DNA of 32,000 nucleotides from an uncultured Nitrososphaerota archaeon (GTDB taxonomy: Archaea; Korarchaeota; Korarchaeia; Korarchaeales; Korarchaeaceae), in assembly GCA_964480775.1 (NCBI GenBank), contig CAYZRF010000010.1, positions 30,001-62,000 of the forward strand, in the 5' to 3' direction. Numbering within the stretch: the stretch's first letter is position 1; each line of letters starts with the position of its first letter. The translations under genes were made by a program, and so were the position numbers. Below, piece after piece: positions 4,674-6,449 of this stretch. The notes beneath the pieces were generated by a model, which had not been told where the DNA came from, did no database searches, and saw nothing but the letters and a program-made list of their open reading frames with translations.

Positions 4674-6449
4674 GTGAAAAGGGTCTTTTCAGCTGCTCTG
4701 GCTTTTGTATTTCTATCTTTAGTGGTTATCTCTGGAGTTGTTTATCAGGTATCTTGCCAAGAAGTTACGATTGAGAAGATCATGGTTTGGGTTGTCTTGA
4801 AGTCTGACGGCACAATGGAGGTCGAATACAATCTTACTTTCCTAGAACATAGTTCTCGGGATAGAATAAGGAAGTTAGGCCCTTTTGAAGAAGGCCACAG
4901 CATAAAGAGCGCTTTCATAGTTCACGATTCAGATGTTCGTGCAGTAGAACTCTCTGAGATTGAAGATGGGCTCTACTCCGTGTTATTTGGTTATAAAACT
5001 ACGTCTGGAGAGCAGTACACTGTGAGCATTAAGTACAGCATAGATAGGCCGGTAGTAACAGAGCAAGAGATGTTCGGGGAGCCATACTCTATATTCGCCT
5101 GGGCTCCTTTCCAATGGAGTTTACCTGTGAATAACGAGACTGTCATGATAGTGATGCCAGTTGAACTTCCTTCAGATGTAACTAAGCCTGAGCAAATAAC
5201 TCAAGAGCTTATAGACTCCTTAGGAATAGGCTATGGAGATCTCACTGATTACAGGTGGTCATTCTATCCGACTGTTGATGAGACCACTGGTAAGAGCTGG
5301 CTTTCCATCTACTTATCTAAAACCAGCTTGGAGCCATACTATCACTTTGTGATTGAACTCTACATTCCAAGCAAGTACTTCACTTTAGGTCCCTCTCCAA
5401 CATTTCCGCCCCCAGTATCCCCGACAGTAACGCCTCCTGGTTTGATTGCCTCGTACGGCTGGGTAATAATAGCAATATCGGCTCTCATAATGTTTGGATC
5501 CTTTCTTGCGTATGTAAGAGGAAGAGAAAGGAGAAGAAGGGTTCCAAGATATGAAGCACCAGAGATAGAGATAGAAACCTTCGAAGTTCCCGAGAAAGTT
5601 GCAGATCTTGACCCTGCAGAGGCAGCCATGCTCGTATCGTCTGCTGATAAAGTCATAGCTCTTATAGCTCTTAGCTTGATGGAAAGGGGCATCATACAGA
5701 TGACTTCGGTTAAACCACCAAAATATTCGATTAATGACCGAGAATTGGAGAAGAGAAGAAAAGAGCTGAAGAAATACGAGTTAAAGTTCATAGAAGCCAT
5801 TAGAGATGATGGTTCAATTGATGAAGAGGAACTCAGATTGATTTTGAAGGAGGTTGCATACAGCCTTAACGAAAAGGCGTGGGATGCAGATATAGAGAAA
5901 ACTAGAGAGAGATACAAGGAACTAGTTGAAGAAAAATGGAAAGAGCTTGAGGATCGACCTAGGGCTCAAGAAAAAGTTGATTACTGGAATGATAACTGGC
6001 CTTGGCTTATAATTCACACAAATTCGCATAGAAGAGCTAGAGACGTTTTCGTACCAACAACCCCAGGAGAAAAAGTTAGAATAAAACCAAAGCCCGACAG
6101 GAGACCTTTTCCAGTAGTGACCCCCGTTGAGAGAGGTGCGAGAACAATCGTGGTCGGGATAGAAGACTTCGCCAATAGGGTAGTTAGCACAATAGAATCC
6201 ATAAGCAAGAACGTTGTTGAGGGTCTAGAGAAGGTCGCTGAAAAAACGGTCGAATCGGTTGAAAAGGCTGGAGTAAAAGAAGCTTGTTACTCGGCATGTG
6301 TAGAACATGATGCTTGTCATTCCGCATGTGTTCACGATGCTTGCCACAGTGCGTGCGTTCACGACGCTTGTCATTCGGCTTGCCACAGTGCCTGTCACTC
6401 TGCGTGTCATTCAGCTTGTCACTCTGCCTGTGTGTCAGGCTTTGAGTGA
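4674..6449 (+). CDS. Bitopic membrane protein, DUF2207-like, with a cytoplasmic C-terminal Cys/His (Ala-Cys-x-x)n repeat tail
   Basis: GTG start with an N-terminal signal/anchor ([20 protein letters not shown]). Ecto-domain opens [17 protein letters not shown], as in DUF2207 N-termini. Pro-rich linker [17 protein letters not shown]. TM segment [25 protein letters not shown], followed by RGRERRRR (positive-inside). [30 protein letters not shown] resembles the DUF2207 cytoplasmic motif. The C-terminus is [55 protein letters not shown]. Confidence 0.75.
   Translation: [591 protein letters not shown]
6282..6446 (+). repeat. In-frame coding tandem repeat: two 27-nt units (D-ACHS-ACVH) followed by five 12-nt units (ACHS), flanked by degenerate AC units
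   Basis: Read directly from the sequence: gct tgt cat tcg / gct tgc cac agt / gcc tgt cac tct / gcg tgt cat tca / gct tgt cac tct. The peptide units are identical but use different synonymous codons, including both TCN and AGY serine codons. Confidence 0.9.

What the first reader, a model, noticed from the sequence alone, without database searches (positions are those of the whole stretch)
6282..6449. Cys/His tail: 12 'AC' units and 10 His in 55 residues, conserved at the peptide level but not the DNA level
The tail reads [28 protein letters not shown](ACHS)x5-ACVSGFE. Every Cys is preceded by Ala. The five consecutive ACHS units are encoded gcttgtcattcg / gcttgccacagt / gcctgtcactct / gcgtgtcattca / gcttgtcactct. 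Ser uses both the TCN and AGY codon families, and Ala uses three different codons. This argues against a recent slippage expansion and for selection on the peptide repeat itself. The preceding TM segment (about nt 5440-5515) is followed by RGRERRRR, so the positive-inside rule puts the tail in the cytoplasm, where a radical SAM enzyme could reach it. Alternative reading: it is a cytoplasmic metal-binding (Zn/Ni/Cu/Fe-S) tail, analogous to His/Cys-rich metallochaperone tails. It may stand in for the Gly/Ser-rich low-complexity C-termini that I recall in many DUF2207 proteins.
Basis: partly seen in the sequence, partly recalled or inferred. Interest (0 to 1): 0.8.

Follow-up and report, generated by a model that had tools for sequence, protein, structure and literature searches.

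The report
Membrane protein tail targeted by radical-SAM enzyme
The Cys/His-rich tail is a real, almost invariant 12-unit motif at the cytoplasmic end of a single-pass membrane protein; from archaea to bacteria its gene sits next to the same peptide-modifying radical-SAM enzyme, so it is most likely a protein-borne, uncharacterised counterpart of a modified-peptide (RiPP) core.

Summary
Window 6282-6449 encodes the last 55 residues of a 591-aa protein (4674-6449, +). This tail holds 12 of the protein's 13 Cys and 10 of its 16 His, arranged as 12 'A-C-(V)-H-x' units.

The tail is the best-conserved part of the protein. It is 91% identical to a Bathyarchaeia ortholog whose remainder is 44% identical. 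Synonymous sites are saturated, and Ser codons swap between TCN and AGY at homologous positions. Chloroflexota relatives, only 34-39% identical overall, keep the same 12-unit layout.

The protein is predicted as signal/anchor, external beta-sandwich, one TM helix, cytoplasmic winged-helix-like domain, long helix and tail. This places the tail in the cytoplasm.

An orthologous enzyme carrying a PqqD-like peptide-recognition domain (RRE), a radical-SAM core and a SPASM domain lies beside the tail gene in 38 of 44 metagenomic loci with adequate flanks. It also does so in 4 of 4 loci found starting from the enzyme. Gene order is rearranged between archaea and bacteria.

Related DUF2207-like proteins carry His-free (CA)n tails, and in 2 of 4 such loci examined a homologous rSAM is adjacent or nearby.

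No curated family (NCBIfam or Pfam cut-offs) covers any component, and I found no paper on it.

Best reading: the tail is the enzyme's substrate and receives a ladder of short cross-links, most likely thioethers, with His-Ala cyclophanes as the alternative. The chemistry and function are inferred, not shown.

The parts
2051..3478 (+). Radical-SAM/SPASM enzyme (475 aa) with an N-terminal PqqD-like peptide-recognition domain (RRE); the predicted maturase
   Evidence: Pfam hits: Radical_SAM 1.8e-30, SPASM 1.1e-09 and PqqD 1.2e-09 at aa 42-98. No NCBIfam model reaches its cut-off; the best is about 120 bits against cut-offs of 381-500. Orthologs lie next to the tail gene in 65 of 85 loci.
2174..2344 (+). 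RRE (PqqD-like) segment of the enzyme, aa 42-98
   Evidence: PF05402 match above its gathering score, 38.8 bits against 23.4.
2459..2482 (+). CX3CX2C radical-SAM cluster motif (CQNRCVFC, aa 137-144)
   Evidence: Motif scan of the translated sequence.
3107..3355 (+). SPASM cysteine motifs for the auxiliary Fe-S clusters: C353, C367, C370-x14-C385 and CKGCELVEICSGAC at 422-435
   Evidence: Motif scan and the Pfam SPASM hit at aa 370-426.
3450..4667 (+). Conserved 405-aa coiled-coil protein (Lys/Arg/Glu/Leu-rich), overlapping the rSAM gene by 29 nt; role unknown
   Evidence: Only sub-threshold SMC/DUF3584 coiled-coil hits. A homolog follows the rSAM in 47 loci (gene family 2 of my locus clustering). 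tblastn identity is 20-34% outside the Korarchaeota clade.
4674..6449 (+). DUF2207-like single-pass membrane protein (591 aa) that carries the tail
   Evidence: Sub-threshold hits to DUF2207 N (18.8 bits) and DUF2207_C (24.3 bits) in Pfam, and to TIGR04222 (24.9 bits) in NCBIfam. A full HMMER search gives 310 relatives.
4674..4757 (+). N-terminal signal peptide or membrane anchor (about aa 1-28)
   Evidence: Hydropathy peak at aa 4-22, score 2.52; helix at aa 2-21 in the model.
4770..5369 (+). Extracytoplasmic beta-sandwich domain (aa 33-232)
   Evidence: AlphaFold pLDDT above 95. Foldseek matches the N-terminal domain of M1 aminopeptidases and the ribophorin I/OST1 luminal domain, E about 1e-7.
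5448..5531 (+). Single internal TM helix (aa 259-286), followed by RGRERRRR
   Evidence: the sequence itself is.
5586..6053 (+). Cytoplasmic globular domain (aa 305-460) with a helix-helix-hairpin, winged-helix-like start
   Evidence: pLDDT 86-98; secondary structure H314-321, H324-337, E341-345, E350-353. DUF2207_C match at aa 303-421.
6153..6266 (+). Low-confidence predicted long helix before the tail (aa 494-531); a possible internal 'leader'
   Evidence: Helix 494-531 in the model, but aa 509-567 have pLDDT below 50. A weakly conserved E..A....E pattern is present. The leader role is inference only.
6282..6449 (+). The finding: a 55-residue tail of 12 A-C-(V)-H-x units (ACYS [24 protein letters not shown] ACHSx5 ACVSGFE) plus the stop codon; the predicted core/substrate region

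Best explanation
The tail is the substrate ('core') region of a protein-borne, RiPP-like modification system. The carrier is a single-pass membrane protein. It has an external beta-sandwich, one TM helix, a cytoplasmic winged-helix-like domain, a long helix, and a C-terminal array of twelve A-C-(V)-H-x units.

In the cytoplasm the co-transcribed RRE/radical-SAM/SPASM enzyme docks on the protein and modifies the units one after another. The result is most likely a ladder of short-range intramolecular cross-links that use the Cys thiols, that is, sacti- or ranthipeptide-type thioethers.

The modified tail probably stays attached to the membrane protein, because no protease or exporter is conserved with the system. 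There it would form a rigid His-studded module, possibly metal-binding or redox-active. The conserved coiled-coil protein is an accessory partner of unknown role.

Shown here: the motif, its extreme purifying selection, its fixed 12-unit architecture, the predicted topology, and the conserved gene linkage. Inferred: that the tail is modified at all, the cross-link chemistry, and the physiological function.
For: Conservation of the tail:
- It is 91% identical between orthologs whose remainder is 44% identical, with saturated synonymous sites.
- It is the most conserved block in 38 sequences.
- The same 12-unit layout, with units 4 and 6 reading ACVHD, is found in the Korarchaeota/Bathyarchaeia and Chloroflexota clades, which share only 34-39% identity overall.

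Linkage to the enzyme:
- An ortholog of the window rSAM (47-60% identical, 420-610 bits) is present in 65 of 85 loci and in 38 of 44 loci with at least 1.5 kb on both flanks. It usually lies 3-200 nt from the tail gene.
- Gene order differs between clades: rSAM-CC-tail gene in archaea, tail gene-rSAM-CC in bacteria (CC = the coiled-coil protein).
- Four of four loci retrieved starting from the rSAM carry an ACHS-tail gene.

Nature of the enzyme:
- It has the three hallmarks of peptide-modifying rSAMs: a PqqD-like RRE, CX3CX2C and a full SPASM domain.
- Its nearest solved relatives by sequence include the thioether-forming SkfB and CteB.

Absence of another substrate:
- The window has no room for a small precursor ORF. 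The genes overlap by 29 nt or are 6 nt apart.

Why Cys chemistry:
- Ala-Cys is the only element shared with the His-free tails [19 protein letters not shown] and [10 protein letters not shown].... Two examples of those tails lie next to or near rSAMs that are 33-38% identical to the window enzyme over their full length.
- Ala precedes Cys in 550 of 598 positions across 59 distinct tails.

Cytoplasmic location.

Precedents: rSAM/SPASM enzymes do act on Cys-rich repeats (SCIFF; freyrasin with six Cys-Asp thioethers) and on whole protein subunits (QhpD, anSME) (PMC8326336).
Against: - There are no mass-spectrometric or other biochemical data, so modification is inferred from gene linkage alone.
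- Six of the 44 loci with adequate flanks lack the rSAM. In four of them (L011, L019, L021, L064) 7.5-10 kb was available on each side; L008 and L078 are less informative because one flank is short.
- Two of the four (CA)n-class loci examined show no rSAM, although both contigs are short.
- The enzyme reaches no curated family cut-off, so its chemistry cannot be read from homology.
- Invariant His, and His-to-Tyr substitutions, fit an aromatic cross-link or metal ligation as well as they fit thioethers.
- AlphaFold gives no confident structure for the tail, with pLDDT 33-47.
Confidence: 0.6

Rival explanations
1. The tail is the rSAM substrate, but the chemistry is triceptide-like. Each aromatic-x-Ala motif (H-S-A, H-D-A, Y-S-A) would be closed into a three-residue cyclophane by a C-C bond from His C2 (or the Tyr ring) to Ala C-beta. 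The Cys thiols would remain free for metal binding or redox chemistry.
For: - Nearly every His sits in an H-x-A-C context: HSAC 414 times, HDAC 107 times, and x is also T, G, H, N, A or P. The middle position therefore varies while H and A are fixed.
- Tyr replaces His in unit 1 of the window tail and in unit 9 of L005.
- HaaB is a characterised rSAM that links His C2 to Ala C-beta on an HAA motif, and precursors with several Hxx motifs are known (PMC11499958).
Against: - Homologous rSAMs accompany tails that contain no aromatic residue at all, the (CA)n classes. This would require the chemistry to have changed within the enzyme family.
- No triceptide synthase model is among the top 25 NCBIfam hits. 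HxsC scores 97 bits against a cut-off of 268, and WgkB 90 bits against 650.
- This reading does not explain why Cys is invariant.
Confidence: 0.15
2. The tail is not covalently modified. It is a cytoplasmic Cys/His metal-binding or Fe-S-binding (or persulfide-carrying) module, like the His/Cys-rich tails of metallochaperones. The neighbouring rSAM acts on something else, or it uses the tail only as a docking or cluster-donor site.
For: - Twelve Cys and ten His in 55 residues is a plausible ligand set.
- The fixed number of units (12) suggests a defined stoichiometry.
- Six of the 44 loci with adequate flanks lack the rSAM nearby.
- AlphaFold tentatively draws parts of the tail as helix, which would align Cys at i and i+4 on one face, but confidence is low.
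Against: - Linkage to an RRE-bearing, SPASM-type enzyme is conserved across phyla, and the RRE is a peptide-binding domain.
- No alternative substrate gene is conserved in the minimal three-gene archaeal cassette.
- The near-invariance of Ala and of the irregular ACVHD units is more than simple metal chelation usually demands.
Confidence: 0.2
3. The tail is a genuine RiPP precursor core. After modification it is cut off the membrane protein and released or exported as a free peptide.
For: - A secreted InhA-like HExxH protease follows the cassette in about 19 Chloroflexota loci.
- Short proteins that end in the same tail exist in the database, for example P0136 at 102 aa and P0101 at 173 aa. 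These may be fragments.
Against: - No protease or transporter is conserved in the archaeal cassette or in the window. The adjacent ABC system is a convergent, binding-protein-dependent uptake type.
- The protease has an N-terminal hydrophobic segment, from which I infer that it is extracytoplasmic, while the tail is predicted to be cytoplasmic.
- No cleavage motif is conserved before the tail: KEACYS in archaea against GYDACHS in bacteria.
Confidence: 0.05

Closest known systems
Haft's in-silico 'Cys-Xaa-Xaa-Xaa repeat radical SAM target' family (NCBIfam TIGR04117; Pfam PF27846 tSAM_targ_Cxxx_rpt) and the ACGX-repeat system (rSAM TIGR04340)
   Same: These systems have Cys at a period of four residues in a C-terminal repeat, encoded beside a radical-SAM/SPASM enzyme. 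In the ACGX system, as I recall it, the unit is also 'A-C-x-x'. A relative of the window protein, P0036, has a weak precomputed PF27846 hit.
   Different: - The window tail scores 7.5 bits (E 4.2) against TIGR04117, whose cut-off is 50.
- The window rSAM scores 91 bits against TIGR04340, whose cut-off is 400.
- As I recall them, the known targets are small peptides of about 50-100 aa. Here the repeat is fused to a 590-aa membrane protein and has a fixed 12-unit Cys/His architecture.
- To my knowledge none of these systems has been characterised experimentally.
SCIFF/ranthipeptides (CteA/CteB, Tte1186a, freyrasin PapA/PapB) and sactipeptides (SkfA/SkfB)
   Same: These are RRE/rSAM/SPASM maturases acting on Cys-rich cores with short Cys spacing. 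Freyrasin carries six repeated Cys-to-Asp thioethers (PMC8326336). SkfB and CteB are among the closest solved sequences to the window rSAM.
   Different: - Sequence similarity is only 46-69 bits.
- PapB and StsB models are far below their cut-offs in the NCBIfam scans: StsB 91 bits against 625 for the window rSAM; PapB 75 bits against 340 for the related L086 rSAM.
- Those precursors are small leader-core peptides, often with export genes.
- Here the core is the cytoplasmic tail of a membrane protein, with 12 units and invariant His.
QhpD/QhpC (quinohemoprotein amine dehydrogenase) and anSME
   Same: These are radical-SAM/SPASM enzymes that modify a protein rather than a released peptide. QhpD forms Cys-Asp and Cys-Glu thioethers inside a protein subunit (PMC8326336). 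The window tail has C-V-H-D and C-V-E-H-D units.
   Different: No detectable specific homology was tested or found. The targets of those enzymes are soluble enzyme subunits with a known catalytic role, not a repeat tail on a membrane protein.
Triceptides with His motifs (HaaA/HaaB, HtkA/HtkB)
   Same: Both have repeated aromatic-X-X motifs. HaaB links His C2 to Ala C-beta on an HAA motif (PMC11499958). The tail repeats H-[SD]-A.
   Different: No family-level match for the enzyme. Triceptide precursors are small peptides. This comparison does not explain the invariant Cys or the His-free sister tails.
DUF2207 / TIGR04222 membrane proteins with low-complexity C-termini
   Same: The architecture is the same: N-terminal signal, external domain, TM helix, cytoplasmic DUF2207_C-like region and a low-complexity tail. 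One relative, P0098, is named 'DUF2207 domain-containing protein' in UniRef.
   Different: All Pfam and NCBIfam scores are below the curated cut-offs. The tail here is Cys/His-rich, fixed in length and linked to an rSAM. The only functional study of the family that my searches found (S. mutans SMU.243, PMC10457818, listed) I did not read, and nothing I read mentions such a link.

Membership tests
Radical-SAM/SPASM peptide maturase with RRE (general class) | CX3CX2C radical-SAM motif and a Radical_SAM domain above the Pfam cut-off | tested here: met
   PF04055 scores 106.8 bits against a cut-off of 29.5. CQNRCVFC lies at aa 137-144.
Radical-SAM/SPASM peptide maturase with RRE (general class) | C-terminal SPASM domain with the CX9-15GX4C and CX2CX5CX3C cysteine motifs | tested here: met
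   PF13186 scores 38.9 bits against 21.5. The motifs lie at aa 370-385 and 422-435.
Radical-SAM/SPASM peptide maturase with RRE (general class) | PqqD-like RiPP recognition element | tested here: met
   PF05402 scores 38.8 bits against 23.4, at aa 42-98. NCBI names some orthologs 'PqqD family peptide modification chaperone'.
Radical-SAM/SPASM peptide maturase with RRE (general class) | Enzyme modifies the co-encoded peptide or protein | not testable with these tools
   Only conserved adjacency is available.
CXXX-repeat rSAM target (TIGR04117 / PF27846) | Match to the family HMM above the curated cut-off | tested here: not met
   The tail scores E 4.2 and 7.5 bits against a cut-off of 50. The local Pfam copy gave no hit. 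No PF27846 hit is on record for orthologs in L090, L093 or L094.
CXXX-repeat rSAM target (TIGR04117 / PF27846) | Cys at every fourth residue in a C-terminal repeat, next to an rSAM/SPASM gene | tested here: met
   The commonest spacing unit is CHSA, seen 390 times across 59 distinct tails. Adjacency is shown.
ACGX system (rSAM TIGR04340) | Maturase reaches the TIGR04340 cut-off | tested here: not met
   91.1 bits against a cut-off of 400.
SCIFF/ranthipeptide and sactipeptide maturases (PapB NF047865, StsB NF045574, SkfB TIGR04403, AlbA NF012164) | Maturase reaches a family cut-off | tested here: not met
   For the window rSAM: StsB 90.8 bits against 625, SkfB 87.3 against 300, AlbA 90.8 against 850. 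PapB scored 75 bits against 340 for the related L086 enzyme.
SCIFF/ranthipeptide and sactipeptide maturases | Cys-to-carbon thioether in the product | not testable with these tools
   This needs MS/MS or NMR.
Triceptides (three-residue cyclophanes) | Repeated aromatic-X-X motif in the core | tested here: met
   H-x-A occurs in nearly all units, with Y-S-A variants.
Triceptides (three-residue cyclophanes) | Maturase belongs to a cyclophane-synthase family | tested here: not met
   For the two related curated models that scored (HxsC, WgkB) the cut-off is not met; no triceptide-synthase model itself could be scored. No such model appears among the top 25 NCBIfam hits. The related HxsC model scores 97.4 bits against 267.9, and WgkB 90.5 against 650.
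DUF2207 (PF09972 + PF20990) / TIGR04222 | Domains above the gathering scores | tested here: not met
   PF09972 scores 18.8 bits against 24.4; PF20990 scores 24.3 against 33; TIGR04222 scores 24.9 against 43.
DUF2207 (PF09972 + PF20990) / TIGR04222 | Architecture: signal, external domain, TM helix, cytoplasmic region, low-complexity tail; homology to named DUF2207 proteins | tested here: met
   Topology is shown. phmmer links the window protein to P0098 (E about 1e-13), which UniRef names a DUF2207 domain-containing protein.

The most novel reading that the evidence does not exclude
A widespread, undescribed class of protein modification. A RiPP-type radical-SAM maturase writes a ladder of about 12 cross-links into the cytoplasmic tail of a transmembrane receptor-like protein, and the tail is never released. 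This would create a rigid, membrane-tethered poly-His or poly-thiol rod for metal or redox sensing or for scaffolding. The same logic would extend to the (CA)n tails of many DUF2207-like proteins and would give that large orphan family its first mechanistic handle.
Probability: 0.35. Interest if true: 0.85.

Novelty: new variant of a known kind. Interest (0 to 1): 0.7.

Why it matters
RiPP-type radical-SAM maturases are studied almost entirely as makers of small, released peptides. Here the apparent core is welded to a 590-aa single-pass membrane protein. It is conserved almost residue for residue from Korarchaeota and Bathyarchaeia to Chloroflexota and Armatimonadota. No export or cleavage genes are conserved with it.

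If the tail is modified, this is a protein modification with RiPP logic. It is also a ready-made, highly repetitive substrate with 12 near-identical sites for dissecting rSAM processivity and cross-link chemistry.

It would also give the first functional clue for the Cys-rich C-termini of DUF2207-like proteins, a large orphan family. The system is directly testable by co-expressing two genes.

Tried and rejected
- **Word-index protein search.** Searching with the tail protein, and with a 15-sequence alignment, returned only two truncated orthologs. The word index fails on this protein. The exhaustive HMMER search and the DNA-pattern scans were needed instead.
- **Curated family hits for the tail alone.** None were found.
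- **Literature searches.** Searches for CXXX-repeat, TIGR04115/TIGR04117, [18 protein letters not shown], DUF2207, and rSAM plus membrane protein plus Cys-rich found nothing on this system. A promising Methanococcus FeS2 proteomics paper proved unrelated. The Haft & Basu 2011 paper is not held.
- **Structure prediction.** The tail itself came out at low confidence, so no structural inference was drawn from it.
- **Gene family 3 of my locus clustering** (the 163-aa 2-TM/Zn-ribbon protein of the Chloroflexota and Bathyarchaeia cassettes). I looked for a homolog in the window and found none.
- **Neighbours common in the Chloroflexota loci.** Mevalonate kinase, GT4 glycosyltransferase and SelA were rejected as system components. 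They are housekeeping genes syntenic in one lineage only.
- **Slippage or assembly artefact.** Rejected, because independent assemblies give the same 12 units encoded with different codons.
- **(CA)n-tail classes.** Extending the rSAM linkage to them gave mixed results: 2 of 4 loci, with short contigs.
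Full report
**1. What is in the window**

The finding lies at the 3' end of a 591-codon ORF, 4674..6449 on the + strand. Nucleotides 6282-6446 translate to [28 protein letters not shown](ACHS)x5-ACVSGFE, followed by TGA.

Twelve of the protein's 13 Cys and 10 of its 16 His are in these 55 residues, and every tail Cys follows an Ala. 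The seven ACHS units share on average 73% nucleotide identity (range 50-100%). Ala uses four codons, and Ser uses both the TCN and AGY families. Tandem Repeats Finder reports only a weak 12-nt array with 70% matches.

**2. The gene and its neighbours**

The protein gives only sub-threshold matches to DUF2207 N (18.8 bits), DUF2207_C (24.3 bits) and TIGR04222 (24.9 bits). Two genes lie upstream on the same strand, overlapping or nearly abutting it:
- A 475-aa radical-SAM enzyme at 2051..3478. It has a PqqD-like RRE (aa 42-98), a Radical_SAM core (CQNRCVFC at aa 137-144) and a complete SPASM domain.
- A 405-aa Lys/Arg/Glu/Leu-rich coiled-coil protein at 3450..4667.

The enzyme reaches no NCBIfam cut-off. 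Its best scores, about 120 bits, are to PqqE and NirJ2, whose cut-offs are 381-500. By sequence, its nearest solved relatives are SkfB, Tes, PqqE, SuiB and CteB, at 46-69 bits.

The rest of the window holds ordinary chromosomal genes: a convergent binding-protein-dependent ABC uptake system, metallophosphoesterases, a QPRTase-family phosphoribosyltransferase and an XPD-like helicase. The closest rSAM relatives (81% and 82% identical) are labelled Candidatus Korarchaeota.

**3. Selection on the peptide**

Full-length orthologs were recovered from representative genomes: L003 at 84% identity, L004 at 80%, and L005, a Bathyarchaeia sequence, at 48%. All have 12 AC units.

Between the window and L005 the tail is 91% identical and the rest of the protein 44% identical. 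In the tail, synonymous differences are saturated, with pS about 0.86-1.1. Several Ser positions are TCN in one ortholog and AGY in another. This is strong purifying selection on the peptide, not a young slippage array.

**4. A much larger family with the same tail**

An exhaustive HMMER search found 310 relatives among 50%-identity cluster representatives. Their C-termini fall into three related classes, all ending in ...C-[AV]-[SG]-G-G-like sequences:
- (ACH[SD])n...ACVSGG
- [27 protein letters not shown]
- [23 protein letters not shown]

A metagenome scan for ACH[SD]ACH[SD] returned at least 447 relatives, of which the best 80 loci were kept. In the large bacterial clade the tail is almost invariant: [27 protein letters not shown][DS]-[AN]CHS-ACHS-AC[VD][15 protein letters not shown][SR]F. 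Names attached to neighbouring rSAMs place this clade in Chloroflexota/Anaerolineae and Armatimonadota. The tail again has 12 AC units, with ACVHD at units 4 and 6 as in the window. Yet these proteins are only 34-39% identical to the window protein and differ widely just upstream of the tail.

In a 38-sequence alignment the tail blocks score 0.75-0.96 conservation, against at most 0.71 elsewhere. Across 59 distinct ACH-type tails:
- Ala precedes Cys in 550 of 598 cases.
- His is almost always in an H-x-A-C context (HSAC 414, HDAC 107, with x otherwise T, G, H, N, A or P).
- Distant subfamilies range from 4 to 18 Cys.

So the period is kept everywhere. The length is fixed within the main clades and varies only between subfamilies.

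**5. Linkage to the radical-SAM enzyme**

tblastn with the window proteins shows an rSAM ortholog (47-60% identical, 420-610 bits) in 65 of 85 loci. It is present in 38 of the 44 loci with at least 1.5 kb on both sides. In most loci it lies 3-200 nt from the tail gene.

Gene order differs between clades. It is rSAM - coiled-coil - tail gene in the archaeal clade, and tail gene - rSAM - coiled-coil in bacteria. The bacterial loci often continue with a 163-aa membrane/Zn-ribbon protein and, in one lineage, an InhA-like protease. Linkage that survives such rearrangement argues for function rather than inherited synteny.

A reverse test started from the enzyme. It looked up loci from Korarchaeota, Anaerolineae, an unnamed lineage and Armatimonadota. 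All four carry an ACHS-tail gene; in the Armatimonadota contig only its last codons survive, at the contig edge.

There are exceptions. Six of the 44 loci lack the enzyme. L011, L019, L021 and L064 lack it within 7.5-10 kb on each side, while L008 and L078 are less informative because one flank is short.

Relatives from other tail classes also sit beside or near rSAM/SPASM genes:
- P0036 (ACHD/ACHS tail), with the rSAM immediately downstream.
- P0098 (CACACA... tail), with the rSAM immediately downstream.
- P0058 (CVCAC... tail), with the rSAM 2.7 kb away on the opposite strand.

Those enzymes are 33-39% identical to the window enzyme over their full length (234-314 bits). That is far closer than any curated family. 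Two further (CA)n examples on short contigs showed no rSAM, so for those classes the linkage is suggestive only.

**6. Topology and structure**

Hydropathy finds an N-terminal signal or anchor, one strong TM helix (aa 263-281) followed by RGRERRRR, and a weaker hydrophobic stretch at aa 318-336.

The AlphaFold model was built from a 69-sequence alignment and has a mean pLDDT of 80. It shows:
- An external beta-sandwich (aa 33-232, pLDDT above 95).
- A TM helix (aa 259-286).
- A confident cytoplasmic domain (aa 305-460) in which residues 314-353 form helix-helix-hairpin. The 318-336 stretch is therefore not a membrane helix.

The tail is thus predicted to be cytoplasmic, where an oxygen-sensitive rSAM could reach it. 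The tail itself is modelled at pLDDT 33-47, and I draw nothing from its shape. The external domain resembles the N-terminal domain of M1 aminopeptidases and the luminal domain of ribophorin I/OST1.

**7. Interpretation**

The most economical reading is that the tail is the enzyme's substrate, a RiPP-like core that is part of a membrane protein. Four points favour it:
- The RRE/SPASM architecture of the enzyme.
- The conserved linkage in both search directions.
- The absence of any other conserved candidate substrate in the minimal three-gene archaeal cassette, where genes overlap by 29 nt or are 6 nt apart, and no homolog of the 163-aa Zn-ribbon protein is present.
- The exceptional constraint on every A, C and H of the repeat.

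For the chemistry I favour Cys-based thioethers. Ala-Cys is the only element common to all three tail classes served by homologous enzymes. Thioether formation on Cys-rich repeats is also established for SCIFF and freyrasin, and for the protein substrate of QhpD (PMC8326336).

The main chemical rival is a His C2 to Ala C-beta cyclophane on each H-x-A motif, as HaaB makes on HAA (PMC11499958). It fits the variable middle residue and the His-to-Tyr substitutions. It does not explain the invariant Cys or the His-free sister tails.

A purely metal-binding, unmodified tail remains possible; I put it at about 0.2. Release of the tail as a free peptide is unlikely, because no protease or exporter is conserved with the system.

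**8. Comparison with known systems and novelty**

The nearest described concept is Haft's 'Cys-Xaa-Xaa-Xaa repeat radical SAM target' (TIGR04117, Pfam PF27846), together with the ACGX-repeat system. The window tail and enzyme both fail those models: 7.5 bits against a cut-off of 50, and 91 bits against 400. As I recall them, those targets are small peptides.

No curated model names any of the three window proteins. NCBI calls orthologs simply 'radical SAM protein', 'PqqD family peptide modification chaperone' or 'hypothetical protein'. Six literature searches found no description of the system.

I therefore rate it a new variant of a known kind. It uses rSAM/SPASM/RRE maturase logic, but the core is fused to a DUF2207-like transmembrane protein and has a fixed 12-unit Cys/His architecture conserved across archaeal and bacterial phyla. 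The modification itself is inferred and needs the two-gene co-expression experiment described under next steps.

Noticed in passing
window 4770-5369 (aa 33-232 of the tail protein): The external domain is a confident beta-sandwich. Its best structural matches are the N-terminal domain of M1 aminopeptidases (ERAP2, IRAP) and the luminal domain of ribophorin I/OST1, which is itself a single-pass membrane protein with a cytosolic helical part. This may hint at a ligand- or glycan-binding role for DUF2207-like ectodomains.
   Followed up: partly
window 359-1909 (-): A beta-CASP/MBL nuclease is transcribed divergently from the rSAM. It matches aCPSF1 (319 bits, cut-off 580) and the type VII CRISPR protein Cas14 (283 bits, cut-off 800), but only over aCPSF1 model positions 173-628, so the N-terminal KH domains appear to be absent. 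It keeps this position in L004 and L090-L092.
   Followed up: no
L030 13704-14195, L047 11029-11520, L006 5696-6106: A 136-163-aa protein with two N-terminal TM helices, a winged-helix-like middle and, in bacteria, a C-terminal Zn ribbon accompanies the cassette. It is found in 25 loci, including Bathyarchaeia, but has no homolog in the window. It may be an optional fourth component.
   Followed up: partly
L030 14196-16205 and 18 other Chloroflexota loci: A roughly 670-aa protein with an N-terminal hydrophobic segment, an HExxH motif and an InhA-like MAM domain follows the cassette in one bacterial lineage only. It could be a processing protease or mere synteny.
   Followed up: partly
L089 8001-11038; L088 3946-9653; L086 495-3523: DUF2207-like proteins ending in [29 protein letters not shown]... 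or (ACHD/ACHS)n each have a related rSAM/SPASM gene adjacent or nearby. Two other (CA)n examples on short contigs do not. Whether rSAM linkage is general for Cys-tailed DUF2207-like proteins is open.
   Followed up: partly
L005 3287-4342 (-), L006 downstream of the tail gene: In the Bathyarchaeia loci a second, unrelated 351-aa radical-SAM protein lies convergent to the tail gene. It has no detectable similarity to the cassette rSAM and is absent from the window.
   Followed up: no
window 5544-5633 (aa 291-320): The stretch right after the TM helix, Y-x-A-P-E-I-E-x-E-T-F-x-x-P-G-x-V-P-x-L, is the best-conserved part of the protein outside the tail, yet it is modelled as coil with only moderate confidence. 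It is a candidate docking strand for the RRE or the coiled-coil partner.
   Followed up: no
L001 and L002 (contig ends): Two MAG contigs carrying the cassette break inside the tail-protein gene, at codons 394 and 347, well before the repeat. The reason is unknown. The word-index protein search also failed to retrieve any full-length relative of this protein.
   Followed up: no
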